From positions 7,425 to 71,424 of IMG/VR virus record IMGVR_UViG_2974599810_000001: a stretch of DNA of 64,000 nt; one strand, given 5' to 3'. A model generated the notes under the pieces. That model ran no database searches and was not told the DNA's origin. It saw only the letters and a program-made list of their open reading frames with translations. Positions within the stretch are counted from its first letter, which is position 1, and each line of letters opens with the position of its first letter. Positions 9,283 to 38,689 of this stretch are shown here, one piece after another. Position numbers and translations under genes: made by a program. The stretch comes from a virus. Its lineage: Duplodnaviria > Heunggongvirae > Uroviricota > Caudoviricetes > Demerecviridae.

Positions 9283-9312
9283 TTTTATTCCTTCTCATCA
9301 ATTTATAAAGTA

Positions 9313-9341
9313 ATTATACAGAAACTTAAGCATTTTAGCAA
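9313..9341 (-). promoter_or_regulatory. conserved early promoter (TTGCTA-17-TATAAT)
   Basis: Hexamers seen on minus strand. Confidence 0.65.
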
Positions 9342-9449
9342 ATAAAACTTTTAATTAAAATGCCTAATCCTGTACCAATAGCAATACAAATGATTATAAG
9401 TATTGCTATCGCTTGTACGATTCGTTTAATAATAGCCTCAGCTATATAC

Positions 9450-22136: not shown

Positions 22137-22223
22137 TGGTGCTGGGCACAGGATTCGAACCTGCAACGGGATTACTCCTCCTGATTACAAATCAGGTGCA
22201 TTCAACCATTCTGCCAACCCAGC
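22137..22223 (-). tRNA. tRNA with anticodon UGU (Thr) and a 15-nt variable arm carrying a GGA-GTAA-TCC mini-hairpin
   Basis: Acceptor GCTGGGT/GCCCAGC, anticodon arm CCTGA-TTTGTAA-TCAGG, T-arm GCAGG-TTCGAAT-CCTGT, CCA encoded; 87 nt. Confidence 0.55.
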
Positions 22224-22625: not shown

Positions 22626-22702
22626 TTGGAGCGGCTAGAGGGAATCGAACCCTACTCAGCGAGGCTTGGAAGGCCTGCGACACAACCCGTGTGCTTAACC
22701 GC
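22626..22702 (-). tRNA. tRNA-Gly (UCC)
   Basis: Acceptor GCGGTTA/TAGCCGC, anticodon loop CTTCCAA, T-arm AGGG-TTCGATT-CCCT. Confidence 0.6.
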
Positions 22703-23179: not shown

Positions 23180-23548
23180 AATTGAAAACTCGCAGGGTTA
23201 GCGAAACCTTCCTCAATTAGCATGTTCTAGAATACTAATCAAGTTATCTCCTATTGCACGCAGCTCAAGACGAGTACGAATTTTCAATTGTGGCGGCTCT
23301 CCGAAACTCTTCTACCCTAGCCTTAGCAGCTTACTCCCGAACGCATGTCGGGGAAGTCTTACTAAGAGCATCAAATAGCACCGTTACACTTTGAGCCATA
23401 GATATATCAAGAAGCAGAAGGACTTGAACCTTCACGAGATAGACCATTTATCTCAGCCGCTTTATGAGGTATGTTGCAAGGAGTGGATGTTCCTTATAAA
23501 CCTTTTAGGCAGCCCCGTCTACCGATTCCGGCATACTTCAAGAATTAT

Positions 23549-23752: not shown

Positions 23753-23770
23753 AAGGTTTTCCTTATTAGT

Positions 23771-23865
23771 TGGAGGTAGGTAAGGGGATCGAACCCTTAC
23801 ACCGTATCACTACGATCAACCGATTTCAAGTCGGAGTCCAGCGCCAGCCATTGGATTGACCTACC
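23771..23865 (-). tRNA. tRNA-Ser (UGA), class II
   Basis: Acceptor GGTAGGT/ACCTACC, anticodon loop CTTGAAA, long variable arm, T-arm AAGGG-TTCGATC-CCCTT. Confidence 0.6.
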
Positions 23866-23877
23866 ATATAAGTTGTT

Positions 23878-23968
23878 TGGCGGAAGAGGAGAGATTTGAA
23901 CTCTCAAGCCGTTTTACCAGTCAGCCACTTTCCAAGCGGTTTTCGTCACCAATTCGATTTGCTCTTCC
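23878..23968 (-). tRNA. tRNA-Ser (GGA), class II
   Basis: Acceptor GGAAGAG/CTCTTCC, anticodon arm ACCGC-TTGGAAA-GTGGC (like E. coli serV), T-arm GAGAG-TTCAAAT-CTCTC. Confidence 0.6.
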
Positions 23969-24081
23969 AATAATAAGATGATGCCTCTATCACACCAGGC
24001 AGTTACGCCTCGCTGGGATTCGAACCCATTAAAACAGCTCAACCGAGATAGTAGGTTTAATTTACTCTGACCATCAAATTT

Positions 24082-24242: not shown

Positions 24243-24479
24243 AATTCTTTAGTTTACTAAGGCTATTAGCTCGGCGTAACTACAGCACCTTCGCTTCAAG
24301 CGGAAGGAACCGCGTCATCTCGCAAACCCGATACACTATTCAGTTGCCGCTGAATCTAGTGGACTAATCTAGAACTTCTCCCGAATCGTAGGGATCGTGC
24401 TTTTTGGCAGCCAGTCCTAGGTCGAGCTAATACCTTAGTGAACTATGATGAGGATTTCTCCTCATCAATTTATATAAAT

Positions 24480-25318: not shown

Positions 25319-25394
25319 TGGTCAGTGCGGCAGGACTCGAACCTGCGACCCGAAGCATCCAAGGCTCCCACGCTACCAACTGCGCTACGCACTG
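25319..25394 (-). tRNA. tRNA-Pro (UGG)
   Basis: Acceptor CAGTGCG/CGCACTG, anticodon arm GGAGC-CTTGGAT-GCTTC, T-arm GCAGG-TTCGAGT-CCTGC. Confidence 0.65.
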
Positions 25395-25424
25395 TTAATT
25401 TTGTTAACTCACTTTATAAAATAT

Positions 25425-25453
25425 ATTATACAGATAATTAAGCAGAATAGCAA
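25425..25453 (-). promoter_or_regulatory. conserved early promoter driving the tRNA-Pro/Met/Lys/Val cluster
   Basis: TTGCTA-17-TATAAT on minus strand. Confidence 0.6.
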
Positions 25454-25599
25454 ATGAATTTTTAATAAATTTACTTATTGTGTAGGCCACCTGGAGGCTA
25501 TCAACCCCACGGCTGACAAAGAAGTTTGCGAGACCTCTCTTAAATGCCAGAATAGACCCGCCGATCTACCGGAACCTACATAATAAGTAAACTTTATAG

Positions 25600-25725
25600 T
25601 GTCATTCTAGACAGGACTCGAACCTGTTATCACTTGTGCGGACTTACGAGAACCATTCTTTCACTCGAATCGAACGAGCTTCTGCCCTCGCCAAGCTGGT
25701 TTCCCCATCAACCACGCTAGAATGT
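25600..25725 (-). ncRNA. tRNA-like element of about 121 nt (ATTCTAG..CTAGAAT acceptor-like pairing, D-arm-like and canonical T-arm ACAGG-TTCGAGT-CCTGT) with about 45 extra nt in the anticodon region
   Basis: Folded by hand; an internal second T-arm-like hairpin GCTCG-TTCGATT-CGAGT; not a canonical tRNA. Confidence 0.35.
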
Positions 25726-25845
25726 TTGATTGTTTTCAGTGCAAGAGTCCGAGTCTTGGACACGACCGCTTCGCAAGTACATAGGCAGCTTATCATGAGT
25801 CGGCACTTCCGAATTGCTAGCTCCGTGTTCTGCACTGAAATTTTG

Positions 25846-26193
25846 TTAATTTAATAGTAAAGTACGATCTACTTCACCATTAATTGTTCGGCATTCTTCT
25901 GGGATTGCTGGGGTGGCCTTGTATTCCCACCACTCAGAACCATCATATTCACCACGTTCTAACCAAGTCCCATCAGTAAACCACACGTTACCATAAAGCA
26001 ATTGCCCACCATAACCAGAATCATATTTAAAGTCTAGATTATTTAGAAAATCTTCAATATCTTTTTCTGTATAACCTACTGGTAATACCCAAACTTCTTT
26101 GTTCCCATAATAACCGAATTCTATCTTAATACACTTAACTTCAGACTTAGTATTCTTTAGGGCAAGTAACAATTCTTCTTTAGCATTAATCAT
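25846..26193 (-). CDS. hypothetical protein (115 aa)
   Basis: ORF. Confidence 0.5.
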   Translation of the reverse strand: MINAKEELLLALKNTKSEVKCIKIEFGYYGNKEVWVLPVGYTEKDIEDFLNNLDFKYDSGYGGQLLYGNVWFTDGTWLERGEYDGSEWWEYKATPAIPEECRTINGEVDRTLLLN

Positions 26194-26219
26194 AGCATAT
26201 TTCCCGTGCTAGTTTAATT

Positions 26220-26296
26220 TGGCGCGACCGATGGGATTCGAACCCACATTCTCTCCCGTGACAGGGGAGTACCATTACCAAGCCAGCCCCGGTCGC
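26220..26296 (-). tRNA. tRNA-Asp (GUC)
   Basis: Acceptor GCGACCG/CGGTCGC, G73, anticodon arm CTCCC-CTGTCAC-GGGAG, T-arm ATGGG-TTCGAAT-CCCAT. Confidence 0.7.
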
Positions 26297-26491: not shown

Positions 26492-26593
26492 GCTTGTTTC
26501 CTCAGTTATTAATGAAAATGGTATCTGTGTCTGAATTCGATGTCAGCAATGATAGCTGGTTGGCTACCGGTTTACTTAACTCTACACAGAATT

Positions 26594-28770: not shown

Positions 28771-28848
28771 TGGTGGCTCCCCGAGGATTCGAACCTACGT
28801 ACCTTCCGGTTATGAGCCGGGTGCTCATACCATATGAGCTTGAGAACC
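28771..28848 (-). tRNA. tRNA anticodon CAU (third CAU species; T-stem imperfect)
   Basis: Acceptor GGTTCTC/GGGAGCC, D-arm GCTCATA..TATGAGC, anticodon arm CCCGG-CTCATAA-CCGG. Confidence 0.45.
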
Positions 28849-29749: not shown

Positions 29750-30742
29750 ATGACAGAAGAAGTAGCTAAGAGTCCTGAGACCGTCGCTAGCGTTGCAGCA
29801 GAACTGCACCGTCACGAGGAATCAGATAAGAAAAAGTGGGAGAAGGTCAGAGCCTACGAAGAGAAACATCGTGAACACGATGAAGATGATGAAGAAGATG
29901 ACGATGATGAGTATTGTCATAAATATGGAAAACGTAAAATGCAAGAACCAGTAAACGTATTCACTAGTGGCTTCCCTGGCCTAATGGGTGGTTACCCAGC
30001 AAACGCAGGTGCTTTTGGTGGTGAAGGTATGGGTCTATTCGGAGCTATCCTAATCGGTGCTCTATTAACAGGCGGATTCGGTGGTTTCGGTGGATTCGGT
30101 GGACGTGGTGTAGTTGGTGATGGTACCGCAGTTGATGCAGTACTTCAGAACCAAGATACCGCTAGTATTCTAGCAGCTATTAACACTACTCGTACAGAAG
30201 CTAATCAGGGTACTGGAGCTGTTTTAAGCGCAGTTAACAATGGTTTTAGCCAGACATCCCAAAACCAGAGCCGTGATACTCAGTCTGTACTAACTACGAT
30301 CTATGGTACAGGTGCTAATCTGTCTAATCAGATCTGTCAGGAAACTCGCAACGTTATTCAGGGTCAGTTCGATCTTTCTCGCCAGATTGATCAATCTTTC
30401 GCAGCTAACCAGATAGCTCGTGCGCAAGATAAGTTTGATTCTGCACAGATCGCTTTCCAGCAGACTTTACAAACTAATAACCAGTTTGCCGCTGTTCAGG
30501 CTCAGATGTGTGCTAACCAGAACTCTCTGGAACGTCAGATCGCTGAATGTTGCTGTGAACTTCAGACTGCGATCGCTGGTGTAACTACTGCGCGTATCCA
30601 GGATGAGTTAGACGCATGTCGCCTACGTGAAGCAATCGCTGCGGGTAGCGGTGCTAACGGTCAGGTAATTAATCAAATCGCTTTAAGTCTTGGTGCTATC
30701 ACTCAGACTCTGGCTGGTCTGCAGGCTAAACTGCCGGCTTAA
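29750..30742 (+). CDS. low-complexity protein (330 aa): acidic N-terminus (DEDDEEDDDDE), glycine-zipper/TM-like segment (GLFGAILIGALLTGGFGGFGGFGG), long Q/N/A/S/T-rich C-terminal region
   Basis: ATG at 29750 with AGGAGGTG RBS, in frame with listed ORF 29690..; host-optimal codons (CTG, CGT, GGT, CAG). Confidence 0.6.
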   Translation: MTEEVAKSPETVASVAAELHRHEESDKKKWEKVRAYEEKHREHDEDDEEDDDDEYCHKYGKRKMQEPVNVFTSGFPGLMGGYPANAGAFGGEGMGLFGAILIGALLTGGFGGFGGFGGRGVVGDGTAVDAVLQNQDTASILAAINTTRTEANQGTGAVLSAVNNGFSQTSQNQSRDTQSVLTTIYGTGANLSNQICQETRNVIQGQFDLSRQIDQSFAANQIARAQDKFDSAQIAFQQTLQTNNQFAAVQAQMCANQNSLERQIAECCCELQTAIAGVTTARIQDELDACRLREAIAAGSGANGQVINQIALSLGAITQTLAGLQAKLPA

Positions 30743-30763
30743 TATTAAGGGGAGGAGCCCATT

Positions 30764-31192
30764 ATGAGTAAATATGGTTTTGTAAATAACGGACTTAATC
30801 AAAGTATGGGCTCCCAGCAGCCCATTCCGGGTCTAGATAACCCCTACTTACAACAATTGCAACAGCGTTTAGCAGAAGCGCAACAGATGCAGCAACAACT
30901 CCAGCAAAACCCTGGAAGTGTGAGTCCTATGCAAATGATGCAGCAAATGAATGGGCAGTCGCAAATGCCCCAACAAATGCAGCAACAGATGCAGCAACAG
31001 ATGCCGCAGCAGCAAGTTCAGCAACAAACCCAACAACCGCAGGTTTCTGCGGAAGGACAGGCAGTACTAGCCCTTTTCGAAGACTTCGCAAAGACAGAGG
31101 ATGGGAAGCAGCTTGTATCACTTATGGGTAAGTTTAATAGCTTCTGCCAAAGCCAAGTTGCAAAAGCTCAAAATGGTGGTAATAACTCCTAA
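30764..31192 (+). CDS. polyQ/M-rich protein (142 aa; QQMQQQMQQQMPQQQVQQQTQQPQ)
   Basis: RBS GGGGAGGAG upstream; extreme Q content. Confidence 0.55.
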   Translation: MSKYGFVNNGLNQSMGSQQPIPGLDNPYLQQLQQRLAEAQQMQQQLQQNPGSVSPMQMMQQMNGQSQMPQQMQQQMQQQMPQQQVQQQTQQPQVSAEGQAVLALFEDFAKTEDGKQLVSLMGKFNSFCQSQVAKAQNGGNNS

Positions 31193-31201
31193 GGAGGAAT
31201 T

Positions 31202-31396
31202 ATGTGTTGCAGAAAATCTGTTTCGTGCTGCCCAATGCCTGTAGCACGTTGTTGCTCTTCAGCAATGTTTACACAAATACCGGCGTTCAATCCGTTTGCC
31301 TTTAAGCCTACTCTTATCCTGCCCCCTAGAGTAGATTTTCAGTCAAGGTTGGCCTCCCGTATGGGTGGTTGCTGTAATAAGAGTATATGGTTCTAA
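31202..31396 (+). CDS. small Cys-rich protein (64 aa; four CC doublets)
   Basis: RBS AAGGAGGAA upstream; MCCRKSVSCCPMPVARCCSS..GGCCNK. Confidence 0.45.
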   Translation: MCCRKSVSCCPMPVARCCSSAMFTQIPAFNPFAFKPTLILPPRVDFQSRLASRMGGCCNKSIWF

Positions 31397-31409
31397 AGAA
31401 CCAAACAAT

Positions 31410-31445
31410 AAAGCCCCTAGTCGAAAGACTTAGGGGCTTTTCTTT
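31410..31445 (+). terminator. rho-independent terminator (AAGCCCCTAG..CTAGGGGCTT + TTTCTTTT)
   Basis: Perfect 10-bp stem plus T-run closing the plus-strand cassette. Confidence 0.7.
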
Positions 31446-31460
31446 TATCTTAAATACAGA

Positions 31461-31495
31461 AAAACCCTGCGCTCTTCAGGGAACGCAGGGCTTAC
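31461..31495 (-). terminator. rho-independent terminator for the minus-strand SPFH gene (GCCCTGCG..CGCAGGG + T-run)
   Basis: Hairpin plus TTTTTC on minus strand; faces the plus-strand terminator. Confidence 0.6.
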
Positions 31496-31516
31496 TTCAG
31501 ATGTTACATGCGGGTA

Positions 31517-32464
31517 TTATTTATTACGCATATCCATGATCATTTGACCATCGTAGCCAGTACCTACCACAGTCTGGGGTACACCACCTTGATATTTCTG
31601 AGCACGAATCATTTCGACTTCCAGTTGCTTCCAGCGAATCATCTCAGGAGTAATGGTACGTTGTAATGCGGCGTTAGCTTCAGCTTCTTTCTTAGCTGCG
31701 TATAGTTTAGCATCTGCGTCACGTTCATTGGCAATAGCTTGGTTGTTGCGGGCTTCACGATCTGCTTCTGCTTGTTTAACTTTTTGCTGTGCTTCCTGCT
31801 CAACACGAGCTAATTCAGCTTTAGCAGCATTAACCTGTTCTTCACGAACTTTGGTATTCTGTACCTGTTCCATGATTACCGGTGGCAAAGTAATATCCTG
31901 AAGGAACACCTGCTTAACTGTGTAACCATATGGGCGTGCGTACTCTTCAACTTCCTGTTGAATTGCAGTTTGCAATTGAGCCTGAATTTTAGCATCAAAC
32001 AAATCTTGTGCTTTAGGTACAGACTTACCAAACTCACGAATAGTAGACAGTAATTTTTCAGTTACATATTTGTCTAACGCTTGATCCTGAGTACCTGCAT
32101 TAATACGGTTAATCGGTGCCTTAGAACCATCAAACTGCAACATAACAGTCAGGTCAACAGTGGATTTAAACTTATCCTGACTAGGAACCTGAAGTTTATC
32201 TAATTTTAGAGCAATATCTTTTGTACTAAAAGTATCGAAAGAAGCAAAAGGATTTACAATATGAAAGCCGGGTAATACTGGATTAGGGTCTACTTTACCC
32301 AGGAAAGTCTGGGTTTTAACAGTACCGTCTTGAACAACAGTATAGGAGTTAAGGGCCAGAACTAAACCTACCAAACCAACTGCAGCACCAATACCCCAAC
32401 GTTTGATATTACGCATCAATTTTTGCTCATAAGTCAGTTCTTTAGTGTTTTTAGTAGCAAACAT
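31517..32464 (-). CDS. SPFH/band-7 (prohibitin/HflK/C-like) membrane protein
   Basis: N-terminal TM, then YTVVQDGTV..FLGKV..LPGFHI..PF band-7 core, long coiled-coil C-terminus. Confidence 0.7.
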   Translation of the reverse strand: MFATKNTKELTYEQKLMRNIKRWGIGAAVGLVGLVLALNSYTVVQDGTVKTQTFLGKVDPNPVLPGFHIVNPFASFDTFSTKDIALKLDKLQVPSQDKFKSTVDLTVMLQFDGSKAPINRINAGTQDQALDKYVTEKLLSTIREFGKSVPKAQDLFDAKIQAQLQTAIQQEVEEYARPYGYTVKQVFLQDITLPPVIMEQVQNTKVREEQVNAAKAELARVEQEAQQKVKQAEADREARNNQAIANERDADAKLYAAKKEAEANAALQRTITPEMIRWKQLEVEMIRAQKYQGGVPQTVVGTGYDGQMIMDMRNK

Positions 32465-32498
32465 ATATTTCCTTTGTTTTAGTTACAGTTAATAAAAT

Positions 32499-32573
32499 TG
32501 GCCGAGGTGACAGGATTCGAACCTGCATAAAGGAATTTAGAAGACTCCTGCCTCTCCCTTAGACTACACCCCG
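32499..32573 (-). tRNA. tRNA-Arg (UCU)
   Basis: Acceptor CGGGGTG/CACCTCG, G73, anticodon arm GGAGT-CTTCTAA-ATTCC, T-arm GCAGG-TTCGAAT-CCTGT. Confidence 0.65.
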
Positions 32574-33370
32574 TTTAAGTATTTTTAAGAACTCTCGTAA
32601 AAACTCTTAAAAATACAGACGATACCGGGAGAGTCATAAGTCTCACTCATTAAGTATTTCAAGACAAAATACGGTAACGTCTATTATTTTCCAGTTTAAG
32701 TCAGGGTGACTTAGTGGTTATGTCCTGCGGTATATTGAGGACTCGGTTAGGCTTGGGGTCATGACTTCCCGCCTTTTGCTGCTACTCAACAGGAGTTATC
32801 GCGAATTACCTGTGATATTGTGCACCATTAGTGACATCTCTCATGTCAGCATTTCCCACTTTGTGGATAGCTTGAAAAACTACTCCGATATGGAGGAAGA
32901 ACTTCACTATCCTAGAATACCTTCTAAAGTTCTTCTTTAGCCTGGACATAGTTAAATCGTAATAAAACTATTCAGCAGACTGGTTGGTTAGTCTGGAACC
33001 AACTACCGCGTGGTTTAGGCAGTGCGCAACTAACCTCGGAAGCTTTTACATTAAAAGCACCAGTTATCCAGTTCTTACCGACCGTAGGATTCGAACCTAC
33101 ATCTTCCACCAGTTACGGCTTGATAATACCAATTATATTAGGACGGCAGTGTTACTACATAAGTGATTTCCACACCCCACTATTTATAAATTAGAGAAGA
33201 GTTTAGGGGAGAGGTTTCAGACGCCTCATTTTACACGTTCTAGCCACTAACCGGGATTGCCGCCCCCTGTGTACTAGTTTTACAACTAACCCACCGACTC
33301 TATTCAATGCGCTCCGGTTGGGATTCTGCACTCAGCGTAATCGGCTCGCTGTTCCCTAATTTATGAATAT

Positions 33371-33399
33371 ATTATACAGAATTTAAATGCATTTAGCAA
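33371..33399 (-). promoter_or_regulatory. conserved early promoter pointing into the 800-nt ORF-free region and tRNA-Arg
   Basis: TTGCTA-17-TATAAT on minus strand. Confidence 0.55.
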
Positions 33400-33407
33400 A
33401 TAAATTT

Positions 33408-33851
33408 TTAATTAAATTCGCCAGCAATCTGAGCAGCAGTACCACCATCATAACGCCCAGGAAATTCTTCCTTAATCGCTTTCATCAGCATACCTTTTGT
33501 AATTCCAGGGTTTAGCTTAACTAATTCTGCAAAGTATTTACGAATCTCAGTATCAGATAACTGAGGAGGCAGATACTCCTGCAACCACTTATTTAGAATG
33601 TATTCATACTGAGCAGACTGCAAGCTATAACTATCAAGATCTTGACCATGAAGTTTAGCTTTCATCTGGTTAATGCTTTTTAGTTGAGCTTTGAGATAAG
33701 ACACAAATTGTTCAGAAGTGATGAAATCTTTATCAATACGCTGAAGATCCCCAATTATGGTCTGATAGCTTTTAGCGACTTCTTTATCAGAACCATTAAA
33801 CTTAGAATCCTGCAAAGCTCTACGCAAAACATCTAAAATATTCTCTTCCAT
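33408..33851 (-). CDS. GatB/YqeY-domain-like protein (147 aa)
   Basis: Helical protein ending ..GRYDGGTAAQIAGEFN, reminiscent of YqeY domain proteins; weak. Confidence 0.4.
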   Translation of the reverse strand: MEENILDVLRRALQDSKFNGSDKEVAKSYQTIIGDLQRIDKDFITSEQFVSYLKAQLKSINQMKAKLHGQDLDSYSLQSAQYEYILNKWLQEYLPPQLSDTEIRKYFAELVKLNPGITKGMLMKAIKEEFPGRYDGGTAAQIAGEFN

Positions 33852-33855
33852 TATT

Positions 33856-34023
33856 TCATTCCTAACGCTTGGTTAAAAGATTGTTCTGTCATAACTGCTG
33901 AGACTTTGGCGAAATCAAACTTTTTAGGGTTCGTAGTGATTTCAGCAACGTTAGAAGTTTTAACAGTTTTCGTAGTACGAATACCGCGAGTGTTAACACC
34001 AATAATTACAACTGATTTCATAC
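33856..34023 (-). CDS. small protein MKSVVIIGVNTRGIRTT.. (about 56 aa, below the track cutoff)
   Basis: Hand translation; RBS GAGAGGAAG upstream; sits between promoter 34053 and gene 33408.. Confidence 0.35.
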
Positions 34024-34052
34024 TTCGCTTCCTCTCATTAATTTATGGAAGT

Positions 34053-34081
34053 ATTATACGGAAATTTAAGTATTTAAGCAA
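34053..34081 (-). promoter_or_regulatory. conserved early promoter
   Basis: TTGCTT-17-TATAAT. Confidence 0.6.
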
Positions 34082-34089
34082 GTAAATTT

Positions 34090-34557
34090 TTAAGTTTTAG
34101 TGACAACAGGTTTATAAAACGTATGTCCCTTAATCTTAGTTGTTTTCTTAAACTTCTTTGTCCAGTAAGGTTTATCTTTACCACTATGGAAGTATAGTGC
34201 TCCATATGTAGGATCTTGTGGTAAATCAACGTAGTATATCACTCTAGCTAAATTCTTAGCGGTTTGCCAAGCCTCATCAGTTTTATCAACTTTTGGTCTC
34301 TTAGATACCCAAGAGAACTGGTTAGACTGATATACTACTTTACAGTAGGAATCTGGGAATTTACCGGAGTTTACACGGTTTTTAGTAACATGTGCAATCG
34401 CCGTCATTCCCTTTATGCCCTCACCACGACTCTCGAAATAGATATTTTTAGCAATGCAATCTATTTCTTTTGCATCGTGCGATGCCTGACTACTAAAGCT
34501 GAAGGTAAGGGCAGCTACTAAAAGCAAAGCTGCCTTCATTCTTTTTACTCCTGCCAA
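34090..34557 (-). CDS. secreted cell-wall hydrolase (SleB/CwlJ Hydrolase_2-like)
   Basis: Signal peptide; NIYFESRGEG..AIAHVTKNR..YQSNQFSW motifs. Confidence 0.6.
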   Translation of the reverse strand: MAGVKRMKAALLLVAALTFSFSSQASHDAKEIDCIAKNIYFESRGEGIKGMTAIAHVTKNRVNSGKFPDSYCKVVYQSNQFSWVSKRPKVDKTDEAWQTAKNLARVIYYVDLPQDPTYGALYFHSGKDKPYWTKKFKKTTKIKGHTFYKPVVTKT

Positions 34558-34862
34558 TCATATTCAACACGATTGGGATTTTCTTTATACCCTAAGTCAA
34601 GCAAATCATTACGCATATTTTGCTTAGCTACTGGGTTCGAGGTTACTAGTACCACTTTCTTTGGTCTCTGCCCAAATTCTAAGAGTAAACGAAGAATTTG
34701 ATAACCTTCCATACCATCTACAGCCAAGTCATTATCCATATAAACGAAATGGCCTGTGGTATCAGTTTTATTCAGAAACTCTACAGCGGCTTCTGGGGTT
34801 CGAATGATAATGTCCATTCCGTGAAGATTACGCACATCATCAATCAAAATATGAAAAGTCAT
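34545..34862 (-). CDS. CheY-like receiver-domain-like protein (105 aa)
   Basis: ILIDDV..DIIIRT..FVYMDNDL..GMEGYQIL..KVVLVTSN pattern resembles the receiver fold; weak. Confidence 0.35.
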   Translation of the reverse strand: MTFHILIDDVRNLHGMDIIIRTPEAAVEFLNKTDTTGHFVYMDNDLAVDGMEGYQILRLLLEFGQRPKKVVLVTSNPVAKQNMRNDLLDLGYKENPNRVEYDWQE

Positions 34863-34892
34863 AATAGCCTCGTTTCATCAATTTAAAAATAT

Positions 34893-34921
34893 ATTATACA
34901 TATAATTTAGTAGATTAGCAA
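34893..34921 (-). promoter_or_regulatory. conserved early promoter
   Basis: TTGCTA-17-TATAAT. Confidence 0.6.
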
Positions 34922-35304
34922 ATACATTTTTAAATTGTGAAACTAGTAAACCGATAAACAGCCTAGAGGCGCCACAGGCCATATCTTATGAGCCATGTAC
35001 CTTTGATCTAGGGTTTGAATCATCAACGAATACTTTGCATCTTTTAGCTTTAGAAGTTTAGAAGTTTGAGTTCTTTAAACTTTTCAGCTTTCATACTTAA
35101 ATGTTGATCTTTGAAGTTGTGTCGGTAATATCAACGACGCTTTGTTCTTACGTGTCAGCTTAAAAGGCTGGTGTAATAAACATAATCTCCAATAGATTAT
35201 ACTTTATAGTATGGTCAGCGGTCCTATTTAACCTCGTATTTCAACCGCTGCTGCGAGGTAAGATGCTTGGGCTTTCGTCTACCGATTTACTAGCTTTTAA
35301 ATTA

Positions 35305-35943
35305 TTACTCTACTTCAATGAAGGTAGAGGCGTTAGACTCGGACAGAACAAAGTCAACATTTGTTGCAAAGTCCTGGTATTCCTCGTCATGCTGCTTAAT
35401 CAGCTTTTCCAGTTCCAGCGGATCAATCAAGAATGGAGTATTCTTGAGTTCCAGCAGGTTGAGCTGCATTTTAACTTCATCTTCGGAAGTTTTCTTATCG
35501 CGGGTAGCCATGCTATCCTGCAAACGCTCATATTTAGCATCAAACTGTGCTTTCTGCGTATTAAACTTAACCGTAGCGGCATGGAACTGCTTACGCATGT
35601 TAGCCAGCAGTTGAGCTTTAAGCTCCATAGAACGCTTAGCTTCAATTGCTTCCGCAACAGTCATTTTACGAGAACCGATCTCAACTATTGTTTCTGCATT
35701 GCTCTTAATCAGAGCAGATTTGATACTATCACGCTTAGACATCATATCCAGTAGAGACTGGAAATCAGTCTTAATACGAGTAGACAGGGCATCTATTTCG
35801 ATTGCAGCGCCAACTACAACCTGGTTTTTATCCTTACCTTCACCAACAGCAATCAGGAGCTGTTGTTCAGTAGCTTTACGGATTTTAGCTTCCAGAGATT
35901 TGATAGTTGCCAGAGCGCGAGTTTTAGAAATACGAGTAGTCAT
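35305..35943 (-). CDS. coiled-coil hypothetical protein (212 aa)
   Basis: Long ORF, helical composition. Confidence 0.5.
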   Translation of the reverse strand: MTTRISKTRALATIKSLEAKIRKATEQQLLIAVGEGKDKNQVVVGAAIEIDALSTRIKTDFQSLLDMMSKRDSIKSALIKSNAETIVEIGSRKMTVAEAIEAKRSMELKAQLLANMRKQFHAATVKFNTQKAQFDAKYERLQDSMATRDKKTSEDEVKMQLNLLELKNTPFLIDPLELEKLIKQHDEEYQDFATNVDFVLSESNASTFIEVE

Positions 35944-35996
35944 TATTTGCTTCCTTATATGAAGTTTGAGATTTGAATTTGTTTAAATTTGGTCTA

Positions 35997-36179
35997 TTAC
36001 AGACCAATTGCCAGCAGAGTGCGCAGAACAGTATCGTTACTGTTATCAATTTTAGGATTAGCACGATTTAGCAGATCAAAGATTTTCTGGACACCTGATT
36101 GACGTTCAGCCATACGACGGATACCCAGATTACGAGTAGCTTTCTTACCATTTTTACGAACATTTTTAGATACTGGCAT
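35997..36179 (-). CDS. small basic protein (60 aa)
   Basis: ORF downstream of the promoter at 36220. Confidence 0.4.
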   Translation of the reverse strand: MPVSKNVRKNGKKATRNLGIRRMAERQSGVQKIFDLLNRANPKIDNSNDTVLRTLLAIGL

Positions 36180-36219
36180 ATTTGTTTTCCTTTTATTGTT
36201 TTCTCAAATTTATGAATAT

Positions 36220-36248
36220 ATTATACAGAATTTTGGGGCCGGAAGCAA
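36220..36248 (-). promoter_or_regulatory. conserved early promoter
   Basis: TTGCTT-17-TATAAT. Confidence 0.6.
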
Positions 36249-36249
36249 A

Positions 36250-36951
36250 TCAAATTTTCATTTTTTCGATCATAGCTGCAACACAATAGCTCTCAACTAA
36301 GGCATCGAATGCTGGGTCGTGCTTAACCGGATAGATCCCATAACGAATGGTGTCCATCTTCTCCATTTTAGCTTTTGCCCAGCTAACACCTTCAGCCTCT
36401 AGATCTTTGTAACTATAACCCGCTTGCATCCAGAGATTACGAAGAGATCGAACATTGCCCAAATTCCAGAATTTCCACGGAACTACTTCTCCATTGGTTC
36501 CAGCATGGAACGTGTTTGCAGAGTAGATAGTCATATCAAACTCTGGACCATTACCATAATACAAAGCATTTTCGCCTAGAGCCAACTCCATAATATTTTG
36601 AGCCATAGAGAAGGCAGCATAGTTTGAGCCTAATTTATTAGTGCAATGATGTTTACCATTTTGGAAGGCAATCAGTTTTGGATTACGTTCCCTCATAGCT
36701 TCCATAATGTGGATAGCAGACGGGCTATTTTTAGCTTGATCCATCCAGAATGCTAGAGTAGATGCTGTAACTTTGGCACCAGAATTAAGTTGATCTTGTA
36801 CATCCAAAGTAACAAATACTAGATCAGGGTCTTTATCAATTCCATGCATAGCCACAAAAGCGAATGAAGGCATTGCTATATGAGTAGTACCACAGTCTCC
36901 TGGAGTTCCTAGAGATTCAATATCTAGCATACCAAATGGTTTTACTTTCAT
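36250..36951 (-). CDS. DEDDh-type 3'-5' exonuclease (DnaQ-like)
   Basis: Exo I MLDIESLG and Exo III YPVKHDPAFDALV motifs. Confidence 0.55.
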   Translation of the reverse strand: MKVKPFGMLDIESLGTPGDCGTTHIAMPSFAFVAMHGIDKDPDLVFVTLDVQDQLNSGAKVTASTLAFWMDQAKNSPSAIHIMEAMRERNPKLIAFQNGKHHCTNKLGSNYAAFSMAQNIMELALGENALYYGNGPEFDMTIYSANTFHAGTNGEVVPWKFWNLGNVRSLRNLWMQAGYSYKDLEAEGVSWAKAKMEKMDTIRYGIYPVKHDPAFDALVESYCVAAMIEKMKI

Positions 36952-36979
36952 AACTTATCCTTTATTGTGTAGAAAACTA

Positions 36980-37216
36980 TTAAAGAGCTGTCTCTTTAAT
37001 AGACTCCCACTTCTTGGGGTCTTTAAAACCAGGAAGCATATCCTCACTGACATCCCAGTTTTCTTCTATAGAGAAGTCGGGCCATTCATTCCAGCTACCT
37101 TCTAGCTCTTCATAACAGGTGTCCATTACCTCATGACTAGAAAGTCGTGTATAATCTCTAGCGGACTTATGAGTGCTAGCACGGTTAAAATCATTCTTTG
37201 CTACAAAATTACGCAT
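36980..37216 (-). CDS. hypothetical acidic protein (78 aa)
   Basis: ORF. Confidence 0.4.
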   Translation of the reverse strand: MRNFVAKNDFNRASTHKSARDYTRLSSHEVMDTCYEELEGSWNEWPDFSIEENWDVSEDMLPGFKDPKKWESIKETAL

Positions 37217-37257
37217 AGTTTCTCCAAATAAGAGGGGCTTTCGCCCCTATTTATCTA

Positions 37258-37773
37258 TTACTTCGCTTTACGCTTGCGAGCTGGTTTAGCAGATTTACGA
37301 GCGGAATCACCCGTGAACTTAATGCCTACACCGTAACACAGAGCACGAACATTATCTTTACTATACTCTACGCCAAAGATATTTGGTTTAACAGAACCAA
37401 ACTGTCCACGAGTATCACGCAATACATCTGCTGTTGGTTTACGCTTCTGGTTAACTGCCTTCTCATAGTCTTTCATAGACATACCATTACGAGAGAACAA
37501 TTCAGCCCCAGCGTTGAAGCTCAGGGAAACTGAGACAGATTTGTGGCCGTAATTTTCTACATACATAACCATTTTGTAGGATTTACGGGTGGCATTTTTA
37601 GCTTTAGGCTTCTGACGAATAGGAGCCGGATTATTCAGTGCTTGCGCAGCCTGAGCATCGGTAGGATGCTTACGCAGGTGGCGTTCCAGACGAGCTTTGC
37701 GATTAGCCTCGGTCTGCGGGAAAGTTTTAACTGCCGGAGCTGCTTGAGTTTTTGCGTTTTTCTGCTTAGCCAT
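37258..37773 (-). CDS. basic hypothetical protein (171 aa; Lys/Ala-rich termini)
   Basis: ORF downstream of the promoter at 37812. Confidence 0.5.
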   Translation of the reverse strand: MAKQKNAKTQAAPAVKTFPQTEANRKARLERHLRKHPTDAQAAQALNNPAPIRQKPKAKNATRKSYKMVMYVENYGHKSVSVSLSFNAGAELFSRNGMSMKDYEKAVNQKRKPTADVLRDTRGQFGSVKPNIFGVEYSKDNVRALCYGVGIKFTGDSARKSAKPARKRKAK

Positions 37774-37811
37774 TATTTGTTTTCCTTTTTGTTTATCAAT
37801 TTATGAAGTAT

Positions 37812-37840
37812 ATTATACGAGAATTTGAAGCGTTTAGCAA
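37812..37840 (-). promoter_or_regulatory. conserved early promoter
   Basis: TTGCTA-17-TATAAT. Confidence 0.6.
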
Positions 37841-37856
37841 ATGAATTTTTTAAAAA

Positions 37857-38135
37857 TTATCTACCAACCATCTTAGCTTGTTCGGCATCTGAGACATATT
37901 GATACGCTCCTTTATTATACGCTGGAGCAGTACACATTTTCTTACGCTCAATCTCTTCTTGAGCTTTTCTTTCGCGTTCAGCTAATTCTTCGTCCAGATA
38001 AACTAAACGTTGTTCTGGAGGAGGTGGAAGTCGTGTCTCTGGCTCACCAATATTAGCCTTTCTTATTTGACGAGGTGATTGTGCACGTTTTCTCAATGGT
38101 TTAAATCCTAATGAATTTGAGTTATAGATCCGCAT
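37857..38135 (-). CDS. hypothetical protein (92 aa)
   Basis: ORF. Confidence 0.45.
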   Translation of the reverse strand: MRIYNSNSLGFKPLRKRAQSPRQIRKANIGEPETRLPPPPEQRLVYLDEELAERERKAQEEIERKKMCTAPAYNKGAYQYVSDAEQAKMVGR

Positions 38136-38160
38136 AAAGCCCTCCTCACTTTCAATACGA

Positions 38161-38189
38161 ATATTATACTAAATTAGAAGGCTTTAAGC
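38161..38189 (-). promoter_or_regulatory. conserved early promoter
   Basis: TTGCTT-17-TATAAT. Confidence 0.6.
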
Positions 38190-38212
38190 AAGAAAATTTT
38201 TTAATTTATTTA

Positions 38213-38689
38213 TCACATCTCGGCAAGTTCTTGCTCAGTAATAACTGTGTTACATAAGGCATCTACAGCTTCATTACCACTAATACCAGAATGTCCTTTA
38301 ACCTTAATAAAGGTAGGGTTAGTATTATGAAAGTTGATATACTGCTGTGTTAATTTAAATGCTTCCTGCCAAAGTTCTAGATTAAGAGGAACTTCACCAT
38401 CTGCTTTCTTCCAGCCTTTCCTTTGCCAAGAAAACATCCAACTTTCCATGCCATTTTTGCAATAAGCAGAGTCAGTATAGATAGCAATTGGTCTATTATC
38501 TTTTTTAACGGACCAACGTAGAGCTTCTACAATAGCTGTGAGTTCCATCTCATTATTTGTGGTTTTAGGATTATAACCAGATTTAGAGCCTAAACGATCG
38601 TCGTTATCATTATAGACAATAAAACCCCAAGCACCTGGACCTGGGTTAGACTTACAAGCACCATCTGTGTAAATGTGGAAAACCGACAT
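38213..38689 (-). CDS. rnh: ribonuclease H (RNase HI-like)
   Basis: HIYTDGAC, ELTAIVEAL, IYTDSAY motifs; start at MSVFH with GGGAGG RBS (TAATG coupling). Confidence 0.85.
   Translation of the reverse strand: MSVFHIYTDGACKSNPGPGAWGFIVYNDNDDRLGSKSGYNPKTTNNEMELTAIVEALRWSVKKDNRPIAIYTDSAYCKNGMESWMFSWQRKGWKKADGEVPLNLELWQEAFKLTQQYINFHNTNPTFIKVKGHSGISGNEAVDALCNTVITEQELAEM

What the first reader, a model, noticed from the sequence alone, without database searches (positions are those of the whole stretch)
25560..25850. tRNA-like or structured RNA locus without ORF: 121-nt element with acceptor-like and T-arm pairing
The region has only short overlapping ORFs on both strands (25636..25854 and 25644..25835), typical of RNA genes. 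On the minus strand, ATTCTAG pairs with CTAGAAT flanking a D-arm-like hairpin (TGGTT..AACCA) and a canonical T-arm (ACAGG-TTCGAGT-CCTGT). About 45 nt too many lie between them, including a second T-arm-like hairpin. Further upstream, TTCAGTGCA pairs with TGCACTGAA about 130 nt apart. This could be a tRNA with an insertion or intron, a tRNA-derived stable RNA, or a distinct ncRNA.
Basis: seen in the sequence. Interest (0 to 1): 0.6.

Follow-up and report, generated by a model that had tools for sequence, protein, structure and literature searches.

The report
Phage T5 tRNA-like stable RNA2
This is a real non-coding RNA gene, the counterpart in Salmonella phage L6jm of phage T5's already annotated "RNA2", a tRNA-shaped RNA whose anticodon loop is replaced by a conserved branched insert and whose function is still unknown.

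Summary
The window is Salmonella phage L6jm, a T5-like phage. The described pairings exist on the minus strand at 25600-25724, inside the tRNA array. The element is 96.8% identical and syntenic to T5 rna2, which GenBank annotates as a "tRNA-like stable RNA with unknown functions". ARAGORN and Rfam do not call it.

A covariance model and 35 homologues support six helices by compensatory changes. The homologues come from T5-like phages of Salmonella, E. coli, Klebsiella and Pectobacterium, from T4-like Acinetobacter phages, and from uncultured phage contigs. The helices are an 8-bp acceptor stem, the D arm, the T arm, an anticodon-stem-like helix P, a second T-arm-like hairpin (loop UUCGAUU), and a weaker hairpin with a 7-nt loop C-N-C-G-U-A-A.

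It is therefore a tRNA frame carrying a conserved three-way-junction insert. It is not a decoding tRNA, an intron-containing tRNA or a pseudogene.

Function is inferred only. Most likely the tRNA-processing machinery matures it and it acts in trans as a tRNA mimic or decoy for a host tRNA-binding factor, within T5's dispensable tRNA-rich anti-defence region.

The upstream TTCAGTGCA/TGCACTGAA stem is real. It belongs to a separate, unannotated 105-nt element whose structure cannot be tested. Existence is already known; the family-level structure and spread appear undescribed.

The parts
25600..25724 (-). Whole RNA: orthologue of T5 rna2 (125 nt, CAUUCUAG...CUAGAAUGACA)
   Evidence: It is 96.8% identical over 125/125 nt to T5 rna2. 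T5 carries misc_RNA annotations for it. The covariance models score it 108.9 bits (R1) and 137.6 bits (R2).
25717..25724 (-). Acceptor stem, 5' strand (C + AUUCUAG)
   Evidence: It pairs with 25603-25610. All 7 pairs show changes on both sides and 94% of cells are paired. The 8th pair is CG in 20 and UA in 7 sequences.
25697..25714 (-). D arm (UGGUU-GAUGGGGA-AACCA), loop containing GG
   Evidence: All 5 pairs show compensatory changes and 94% of cells are paired.
25692..25696 (-). Helix P, 5' strand (G CUUG), at the position of the anticodon stem
   Evidence: It pairs with 25632-25636. All 5 pairs show changes on both sides and 95% of cells are paired.
25680..25691 (-). Junction strand GCGAGGGCAGAA with the conserved (A/U)GGG motif
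   Evidence: GGG is nearly invariant in alignments A3 and A10. The pairings proposed for this strand are not supported: P2b is 71% paired and S1 81% paired.
25663..25679 (-). Inner T-arm-like hairpin T' (GCUCG-UUCGAUU-CGAGU)
   Evidence: 4 of 5 pairs show changes on both sides and 96% of cells are paired. The loop UUCRAUU is almost invariant.
25656..25662 (-). Junction strand GAAAGAA
   Evidence: GAAAG(A/U)A is conserved in most lineages.
25639..25655 (-). Anticodon-stem-loop-like hairpin: UGGUU-CUCGUAA-GUCCG, 7-nt loop C-N-C-G-U-A-A at 25644-25650
   Evidence: The loop-closing pair is UG in 16, UA in 7, AU in 4 and GU in 3 sequences, and unpaired in 5. The GG/CC pairs are invariant and the internal U.U position is mostly unpaired. 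The helix is 80% paired. RNAalifold recovers only the UGG/CCG core. This is the weakest of the six helices.
25632..25636 (-). Helix P, 3' strand (CAAG U), preceded by the conserved CCGCA
25611..25627 (-). Canonical T arm (ACAGG-UUCGAGU-CCUGU)
   Evidence: 98% of cells are paired and 3 of 5 pairs show compensatory changes.
25600..25610 (-). Acceptor 3' strand CUAGAAUG plus 3' tail ACA
   Evidence: The T5 annotation ends the RNA here. The homologues in INF11, Klebsiella phage GlastoCabaret and metagenomic locus L072 encode N-CCA at this place.
25735..25839 (-). Separate upstream 105-nt non-coding element closed by UUCAGUGCA/UGCACUGAA. It starts 6 nt after the stop codon of the T5.067-like ORF.
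   Evidence: Sequence. Fold z = -1.35. It is unannotated in the T5 records. It occurs in 220 phage records, all at least 90% identical, so no covariation test is possible. It is absent upstream of rna2 in Salmonella phage vB_SenS-3, Pectobacterium phage DU_PP_V and Salmonella phage INF11.
25479..25581 (-). Orthologue of T5 rnaIV (stable RNA of unknown function), immediately downstream
   Evidence: 96.1% identity over 103 nt. Annotated in T5. Fold z = -2.0.
25425..25453 (-). Sigma-70 promoter (TTGCTA-17-TATAAT), counterpart of T5 promoter P13a. It lies downstream of the RNA and drives tRNA-Pro and the genes after it.

Best explanation
The locus encodes a stable, trans-acting tRNA mimic, the L6jm orthologue of T5 RNA2.

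A tRNA frame makes the transcript a substrate for the host tRNA-maturation machinery (RNase P, 3' trimming and CCA repair) and makes it stable. The frame consists of an 8-bp acceptor stem, the D arm, the T arm and a 5-nt variable loop. The RNA has no promoter of its own. It is probably cut out of a polycistronic tRNA/mRNA transcript.

The working part is the conserved insert of about 55 nt that replaces the anticodon loop. It is a three-way junction that displays two things: a second T-loop hairpin, and an anticodon-loop-like heptaloop C-N-C-G-U-A-A. That loop carries C32, U36, A37 and A38, the signature of tRNAs that decode ANN codons. It sits on an arm about 5-6 bp longer than a normal anticodon arm.

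Most likely this surface binds and titrates or blocks a host tRNA-binding protein. The best candidate is a tRNA-directed defence nuclease, because the gene sits in the dispensable tRNA-rich anti-defence region of T5-like phages.

Shown: the structure, its conservation, the genomic location, and dispensability in laboratory hosts. Inferred: the processing route, action in trans, the binding partner and the decoy function.
For: Identity with T5 rna2 and its annotation as a stable RNA come.

The six helices are supported by covariation in 35 family members, none of which is an ordinary tRNA.

Insert motifs are more conserved than the stems of the frame. These are AGGG, the UUCGAUU loop, GAAAG, AUGG, CNCGUAA and CCGCA. 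The acceptor sequence is free to vary, for example AUUCUAG, UACGGGG and GACUUUG.

Ordinary tRNAs match the frame of the models with the insert deleted, at 44 bits or less. Family members score 58-139 bits.

Several homologues encode a 3' N-CCA.

Every homologue whose surroundings were examined lies in or beside a phage tRNA array, and no conserved neighbouring protein exists.

No promoter or terminator flanks the gene.

The T5Mos deletion 30661-38625 removes rna2, and that phage still grows on hosts lacking the PARIS tRNA-cleaving defence system (PMC11464382). The tRNA-rich region holds anti-defence determinants: tRNA-Lys against PARIS, and tRNA-Tyr and ORF75 against retron defence systems (PMC11464382; PMC11555353).

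T5 rna1 has the same design, a class-II tRNA frame with an insert of about 46 nt in place of the anticodon loop.
Against: No partner protein or target has been identified. No experiment links rna2 to any defence system. The defence screens I read mapped rescue to tRNA-Lys, tRNA-Tyr and ORF75, not to this RNA.

Loop position 33 varies (U, A, G or C), so the loop is not a strict anticodon-loop mimic.

The sixth helix is only 80% paired and has an internal U.U mismatch.

The L6jm and T5 copies end in ACA, not CCA.

The Acinetobacter phage Henu6 copy has no convincing acceptor stem, so the tRNA frame may not be essential everywhere.

Transcript stability rests on a GenBank note, not on data I could inspect.
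Confidence: 0.4

Rival explanations
1. It is a cis-acting processing or stabilising module. The tRNA-like fold would serve only as an RNase P/RNase E punctuation mark. It would separate the upstream T5.067-like mRNA from downstream RNAs and protect transcript ends. The excised RNA would be a by-product.
For: It lies inside a polycistronic array with no promoter or terminator of its own. It is flanked by two other structured elements. tRNA-like punctuation is an established principle in mitochondria and in T4 tRNA operons (own knowledge).
Against: Punctuation needs only the acceptor and T arm. Here the insert sequence is what is conserved, across T5-like phages, T4-like phages and uncultured phages in different gene contexts. 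In Klebsiella phages it sits directly between two tRNAs, where no extra punctuation is needed.
Confidence: 0.15
2. It is a truncated tmRNA mimic: a tRNA-like domain, a helix-2-like stem P and a PK1-like pseudoknot, with no tag reading frame. It would interfere with SmpB or trans-translation.
For: After removing the T' hairpin, the insert aligns to E. coli tmRNA nt 43-83 (helix 2d and PK1). The shared blocks are GAGGG, UGG, CUCGUAA and CCGCA. The score is 26 against 15.3 +/- 2.4 for shuffles, and no shuffle of 500 reached it. The corresponding pairings CGAG/CUCG and UGG/CCG would form an H-type pseudoknot of the same topology.
Against: I chose the segment after seeing the resemblance, so the statistic is biased. 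No Rfam match, tmRNA included, was found at E <= 10. Model R2 hits only the tRNA-like domain of tmRNA, at 15 bits. There is no G3.U70 pair and no tag ORF. Helix CGAG/CUCG keeps at most 2 of 4 pairs in loci L058, L063, L075, L076 and L148, and position 36-77 fails in 16 of 36 sequences. The RNA has a full D arm, which tmRNA lacks.
Confidence: 0.08
3. It is a working decoding tRNA. Either it is a tRNA-Thr(CGU)-like molecule with an abnormal anticodon arm, or it is a tRNA whose insert is removed as an intron.
For: It has a complete tRNA frame. The heptaloop CUCGUAA in T5-like phages looks like the anticodon loop of tRNA-Thr(CGU) (loop rules from own knowledge).
Against: ARAGORN and the Rfam tRNA model reject it. 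U33 is present in only about 5 of 16 lineages. The loop sits a helix further from the elbow than any ribosome-compatible anticodon. The acceptor sequences carry no conserved identity elements. The insert is too short for a group I intron and has no Rfam intron match. An intron would not be better conserved than its exons. L6jm and T5 encode ACA, not CCA, whereas all 22 called tRNAs of the window encode CCA.
Confidence: 0.05
4. It is a decaying tRNA pseudogene or fused tRNA remnant with no function, or the overlapping 63-72 aa ORFs are the real genes.
For: Some depositors annotate hypothetical proteins over it. ARAGORN calls the 5' half of the INF11 copy a tRNA by using T' as the T arm. That hints at an origin from fused tRNA genes.
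Against: Compensatory changes maintain six helices over a wide phylogenetic range. Indels of 1-4 nt between lineages break any reading frame. T5 annotators list it as a stable RNA.
Confidence: 0.04

Closest known systems
Bacteriophage T5 rna2 (misc_RNA, AY543070 32959-33083; AY692264 32962-33086), "tRNA-like stable RNA with unknown functions"
   Same: It is the same gene. Identity is 96.8% over 125 nt. The neighbours are the same: tRNA-Asp, the T5.067-like ORF, rna2, rnaIV, promoter P13a and tRNA-Pro.
   Different: It is not annotated in the L6jm record, which has only hypothetical CDSs nearby. There are four substitutions. Two keep pairs (G.U to A-U in helix P, U-A to U.G in the acceptor) and one (A98 to G) turns the outer A-U pair of the T stem into G.U.
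T5 rna1 (144 nt, "tRNA-like stable RNA"); window orthologue at 23398-23542
   Same: The design is the same. A tRNA frame (here class II with a long variable arm) has its anticodon loop replaced by a structured insert of about 46 nt. It lies in the same tRNA region.
   Different: There is no detectable sequence similarity between the inserts. R1 scores it only 9.2 bits.
Phage T4 stable RNAs species 1 and 2 (rnaC, rnaD)
   Same: They are small stable RNAs of unknown function encoded at the end of a phage tRNA cluster. rnaC ends with a T-arm-like hairpin.
   Different: They are not homologous. R1 gives 12.8 bits for rnaC, below ordinary tRNAs, and nothing for rnaD. They have no three-way-junction insert.
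tmRNA (SsrA)
   Same: It has a tRNA-like acceptor and T-arm domain joined to non-tRNA modules through a long helix. There is local sequence resemblance to helix 2d and PK1 of E. coli tmRNA.
   Different: rna2 has no tag ORF, no G3.U70 pair, no PK2-4 and is one third the size. It has a true D arm. It is not recognised by ARAGORN or by any Rfam family, tmRNA included.
Engineered "tRNA scaffold" RNAs, in which a structured RNA is inserted in place of the anticodon loop for stable expression in E. coli (own knowledge, not tested here)
   Same: The architecture is the same. An intact acceptor, D arm and T arm carry a foreign structured insert on the anticodon stem. This explains how such an RNA can be processed and stable.
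   Different: The scaffolds are artificial. rna2 is a natural, evolutionarily conserved case.
YrlA / bacterial Y-RNA-like tRNA mimics
   Same: These are non-coding RNAs that contain tRNA-like D and T arms and also occur in phages (own knowledge).
   Different: The topology is reversed. In YrlA the RNA ends form the Ro-binding stem and the tRNA-like part is internal. No Rfam match was found at E <= 10.

Membership tests
Canonical tRNA (Rfam RF00005 / ARAGORN) | Acceptor stem, D arm and T arm with GG in the D loop and UUCRANY in the T loop | tested here: met
   The sequence shows them. Covariation supports all three helices.
Canonical tRNA (Rfam RF00005 / ARAGORN) | A 5-bp anticodon stem closed by a 7-nt loop with U33, directly after the D arm | tested here: not met
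   Helix P opens into a three-way junction of about 55 nt. The only heptaloop lies one helix further out, and its position 33 varies.
Canonical tRNA (Rfam RF00005 / ARAGORN) | Recognised by tRNA detectors | tested here: not met
   ARAGORN does not call it. Rfam gives nothing at gathering score or at E <= 10.
T5 rna2 stable RNA | Sequence orthology and synteny with the annotated T5 gene | tested here: met
   96.8% identity over the full length. Gene order is the same.
T5 rna2 stable RNA | Accumulates as a discrete stable transcript in infected cells | not testable with these tools
   This rests only on the GenBank notes in AY543070 and AY692264. I could not read the primary papers.
tmRNA | Tag-peptide reading frame with a resume codon | tested here: not met
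   ARAGORN finds no tmRNA in the window. The insert is only about 55 nt.
tmRNA | G3.U70 alanine identity pair in the acceptor stem | tested here: not met
   Position 3:70 is U-A in L6jm and U.G in T5 (reversed orientation), and it varies elsewhere.
tmRNA | PK1 pseudoknot next to helix 2 | tested here: inconclusive
   There is local similarity to E. coli PK1. The helix-3 equivalent is not maintained across the family, and there is no model hit.
tRNA interrupted by a group I intron | Intron of roughly 200 nt or more with a P1-P9 core in the anticodon loop | tested here: not met
   The insert is about 55 nt. No Rfam intron match was found at E <= 10.
T4 species 1/2 RNAs (rnaC/rnaD) | Homology to the T4 RNAs | tested here: not met
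   R1 with filters off gives 12.8 bits for rnaC, below tRNAs, and no match for rnaD.

The most novel reading that the evidence does not exclude
rna2 is the founding member of a widespread, unclassified phage RNA family that is absent from Rfam. It occurs in T5-like phages, in T4-like Acinetobacter phages and in several uncultured large phages. The family would act as a tRNA-mimicking inhibitor of a host tRNA-directed process. That process could be an anticodon-nuclease defence system or, on the tmRNA-PK1 resemblance, trans-translation. This would be an RNA-based counter-defence distinct from the known strategy of supplying nuclease-resistant replacement tRNAs.
Probability: 0.25. Interest if true: 0.75.

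Novelty: already known. Interest (0 to 1): 0.4.

Why it matters
T5 and T4 have long been known to encode stable small RNAs in their tRNA clusters, and none has an assigned function. Recent work shows that the same T5 region is an anti-defence island in which individual tRNAs neutralise tRNA-cleaving immune systems (PARIS, retron Eco7).

This analysis defines a covariation-supported structure for RNA2. It shows that the conserved part is the insert, not the tRNA frame. It also shows that the RNA recurs in unrelated phage lineages. Together these turn "stable RNA of unknown function" into a testable hypothesis. The loop CGUAA and the inner T loop are obvious mutagenesis targets, and the covariance model can be used to annotate the family.

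For genome annotation, the ORFs called over this locus in many T5-like genomes are almost certainly spurious.

Tried and rejected
- Canonical tRNA, or a mis-folded one: rejected by ARAGORN and Rfam.
- Paralogues within the window: BLAST of the intergenic region against the window found only the repeated early-promoter sequence (25399-25477). It found no rna2 paralogue.
- Extra helices inside the insert:
  - GCG/CGC is 71% paired with no compensatory change.
  - CGAG/CUCG is 81% paired, and one position fails in 16 of 36 sequences.
  - A blind scan for covarying column pairs was dominated by phylogenetic noise and gave nothing usable.
- A conserved partner protein in cis: all-against-all BLAST of ORFs within 2.5 kb of 15 divergent copies found only spurious ORFs overlapping tRNAs or the element itself.
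- Homology to T4 rnaC/rnaD: rejected.
- Homology to tmRNA by covariance model: rejected. Only a post hoc local similarity remains.
- Derivation of the frame from one of the phage's own tRNAs: there is no close match. The best is tRNA-Pro, through the T arm only.
- Covariation test of the upstream 105-nt element: impossible, because all 220 copies are at least 90% identical.
- Literature: four full-text searches found no paper on the function of T5 RNA2. The Glukhov 2018 deletion paper is not held.
- Bacterial genomes: one pattern scan found a single true copy, on a 167-kb contig of a metagenome bin that carries a tRNA array and is probably a phage.

Full report
**Origin of the window and the observation**

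The 825-nt interval between tRNA-Pro and tRNA-Asp is 100% identical to Salmonella phage L6jm (MN956514, Tequintavirus). It is at least 95% identical to more than 100 other T5-like phages. The finding lies on the minus strand inside a cluster of 22 tRNA genes, all on the minus strand.

- acceptor ATTCTAG/CTAGAAT
- D arm TGGTT...AACCA
- T arm ACAGG-TTCGAGT-CCTGT
- a second T-arm-like hairpin GCTCG-TTCGATT-CGAGT

The two short overlapping ORFs are also there. Two details are off. The acceptor-to-acceptor span is 120 nt, not 121. The TTCAGTGCA/TGCACTGAA arms are 96 nt apart, not about 130, and they enclose a different element.

**What the standard tools say**

ARAGORN does not call a tRNA or tmRNA here. 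Rfam gives no match, either at gathering thresholds over the whole window or at E <= 10 over 25380-26240. The minimum-free-energy fold of the 125-nt RNA does recover the acceptor, D arm, T arm and inner hairpin. Its energy is unremarkable (z = -1.3). A single-sequence argument is therefore not enough.

**Identity**

The T5 reference record AY543070 annotates two RNAs at the syntenic position. One is rnaIV, a "stable RNA with unknown functions". The other is rna2, a 125-nt "tRNA-like stable RNA with unknown functions". AY692264 does the same. AY587007 and the L6jm record do not.

Window 25600-25724 (minus strand) aligns end to end with T5 rna2 at 96.8% identity, and 25479-25581 aligns with rnaIV at 96.1%. 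The window carries orthologues of all eight T5 misc_RNAs in the stretch examined. The element is therefore already known as a gene. Its function is not known.

**Family and structure**

BLAST with the element found 485 phage records. Besides T5-like phages these include:
- Pectobacterium phage DU_PP_V (Hongcheonvirus)
- Salmonella phage INF11
- Klebsiella Sugarlandvirus phages
- T4-like Acinetobacter phages of the Henu6/ZZ1 type (matching the insert and T arm only)

Pattern scans of viral, metagenomic and genome collections added divergent copies on uncultured contigs: L058, L063, L072, L074, L076, L069/L075/L087, L123, L135, L137 and L148.

I built a covariance model from five sequences (R1) and rebuilt it from 28 (R2). 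R2 scores family members at 58-139 bits and ordinary tRNAs at 44 bits or less. The tRNAs match only the frame, with the insert deleted. That shows directly how tRNA-like the frame is.

On the 35-member alignment A10, which contains no tRNAs, the six helices score as follows:

| Helix | Cells paired | Pairs changed on both sides |
|---|---|---|
| Acceptor | 94% | 7/7 |
| D arm | 94% | 5/5 |
| Helix P (anticodon-stem position) | 95% | 5/5 |
| Inner T'-hairpin | 96% | 4/5 |
| T arm | 98% | 3/5 |
| Hairpin UGGUN-CNCGUAA-NWCCG | 80% | 3/5 |

In the sixth hairpin the loop-closing pair occurs as UG in 16, UA in 7, AU in 4 and GU in 3 sequences. An internal U.U position is mostly unpaired.

No shuffle of 500 reached the observed values, and partner-slid controls gave 30-48% paired. 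The alignment was fitted to the model, which favours it. However, RNAalifold recovers the same helices on its own. It adds an 8th acceptor pair and recovers only the 3-bp UGG/CCG core of the sixth hairpin.

Other pairings that I or the MFE fold suggested inside the insert are not supported.

The most conserved nucleotides are not in the tRNA frame. They are in the insert: (A/U)GGG, the UUCGAUU loop, GAAAG, AUGG, C-N-C-G-U-A-A and CCGCA.

**What it is not**

- *Not a decoding tRNA.* The heptaloop sits one helix beyond the normal anticodon position. Its position 33 is U in only about 5 of 16 lineages. Acceptor sequences are unconstrained. L6jm and T5 encode ACA instead of the CCA encoded by every called tRNA of the window.
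- *Not an intron-containing tRNA.* The insert is too small, has no Rfam intron match, and is better conserved than the would-be exons.
- *Not coding.* Indels of 1-4 nt between lineages break the frames, while the stems are kept by compensatory changes.
- *Not homologous to T4 rnaC/rnaD*.
- *Not detectably a tmRNA*.

One resemblance to tmRNA deserves a record. With the T' hairpin removed, the insert aligns to E. coli tmRNA nt 43-83 (helix 2d plus PK1) better than any of 500 shuffles. I chose that segment after noticing the similarity. The helix that would make it a PK1-like pseudoknot is not kept in the divergent members.

**Context and likely mode of action**

No sigma-70-like promoter or intrinsic terminator flanks the gene. 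The nearest promoter, the P13a counterpart, lies downstream. The RNA is presumably excised from a longer transcript. The tRNA frame is exactly what RNase P and the 3'-end machinery need (established knowledge, not tested here). Several homologues encode N-CCA.

Every homologue whose surroundings were examined sits in or beside a phage tRNA array, and no neighbouring protein is conserved with it. It therefore behaves as an autonomous RNA module.

In T5 the surrounding tRNA-rich region is dispensable in laboratory hosts. T5Mos (deletion 30661-38625) lacks rna2 and still grows on cells without the PARIS defence system (PMC11464382). Spontaneous 8-kb deletions of the region are also viable. The region carries anti-defence determinants: tRNA-Lys against PARIS, and tRNA-Tyr and ORF75 against retrons (PMC11464382; PMC11555353).

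T5 rna1 has the same design with a different insert.

My best explanation, at about 40%, is that rna2 is a tRNA-scaffolded mimic. Its branched, extended "anticodon arm" would be a binding surface for a host tRNA-binding factor, most plausibly a tRNA-directed defence nuclease. It would act as a decoy or inhibitor.

The rivals are pure processing punctuation, a tmRNA or trans-translation mimic, an odd decoding tRNA, and a non-functional remnant. They are listed with their evidence. None of the functional claims is shown.

**The rest of the flagged interval**

It is unannotated in T5. It is restricted to close relatives, all at least 90% identical. It is absent upstream of rna2 in Salmonella phage vB_SenS-3, Pectobacterium phage DU_PP_V and Salmonella phage INF11. 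Its fold is unremarkable (z = -1.35). It may be a further stable RNA or a 3'-UTR structure. That cannot be decided here.

**Verdict**

The interpretation "tRNA-derived stable RNA" is correct. The gene itself is already known from T5. The covariation-supported structure, the finding that the insert is the conserved part, and the spread beyond T5-like phages appear to be undescribed. They make an old open question testable. Interest is moderate.

Noticed in passing
window 22627-22702 (-): This sequence is 100% identical to T5 tRNA-Gly(UCC). Neither ARAGORN nor the Rfam tRNA model lists it in the window. It may be an unusual tRNA structure that escapes both detectors.
   Followed up: partly
window 28771-28848 (-): This is the orthologue of T5 tRNA-Ile2(CAU), at 97.4% identity. 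Rfam finds it at 40.3 bits but ARAGORN misses it.
   Followed up: partly
window 22137-22223 (-): tRNA-Thr(UGU) is 87 nt long here against 75 nt in T5. It carries an extra stretch of about 12 nt in the variable region (GGAGGAGUAAUCCCGUUG).
   Followed up: no
window 23181-23542, 24261-24432, 26519-26591, 32574-33203 (-): These are orthologues of the other T5 stable RNAs of unknown function: rnaIII, rnaI, rna1, rna2H, rna3 and rnaX. None is annotated in the L6jm record. rnaI ends in a 5-bp terminal stem plus GCCA, and rna3 ends in ACCA, so both have acceptor-like ends.
   Followed up: partly
L002 4502-4645 (T5 rna1); window 23398-23542: T5 rna1 folds as a class-II tRNA frame: an acceptor stem, a Leu/Ser-type D arm, a long variable arm and a T arm. 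An insert of about 46 nt replaces the anticodon loop. This is the same design principle as rna2 with an unrelated insert.
   Followed up: partly
window 23770-23866 and 23877-23969 (-): Two tRNA-like matches of 93-97 nt to model R1 (17-20 bits) lie where T5 has tRNA-Ser1 and tRNA-Ser2. ARAGORN and Rfam call nothing there, and only a 43-nt piece resembles T5 tRNA-Ser1. The serine tRNA genes may be diverged or degenerate.
   Followed up: no
L075 4387-4510 (-), uncultured 18-kb phage contig: A second, more distant relative lies on the same contig as a true family member. It has acceptor GCAAGAG/CUCUUGC plus A-CCA, D and T arms, and an inner CUCCG-UUCGAUU-CGGAG hairpin. Its flanking insert sequences differ (CAGUAAGUUC). 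R2 scores it 58.5 bits. This suggests a broader superfamily of tRNA frames carrying a T-loop insert.
   Followed up: partly
L007 1474-1593 (Acinetobacter phage Henu6) and L128 1496-1613 (AB1I1T): The copies in T4-like Acinetobacter phages keep the insert, helix P and the T arm. Henu6 has no convincing acceptor stem, and its element starts right after the stop codon of gp198. AB1I1T has 6 of 7 possible acceptor pairs. These copies also have CCAU in place of CCGC, which makes a perfect AUGG/CCAU stem.
   Followed up: partly
L004 1503-1571 (Salmonella phage INF11): ARAGORN calls the 5' half of the INF11 rna2 homologue "tRNA-Arg(ccg)" by using the inner T' hairpin as the T arm. This is a likely source of mis-annotation. 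It also hints that the RNA arose by fusion of two tRNA genes.
   Followed up: no
window 25465-25486 vs 25575-25597: A 23-nt inverted repeat (91% complementary) flanks the rnaIV orthologue and extends its terminal stem into the AT-rich flanks.
   Followed up: no
window 25399-25477 and at least nine other places (e.g. 34878-34933, 37787-37858, 9298-9358): The T5-type early promoter sequence, about 60-75 nt long, is repeated at 74-86% identity throughout the window.
   Followed up: no
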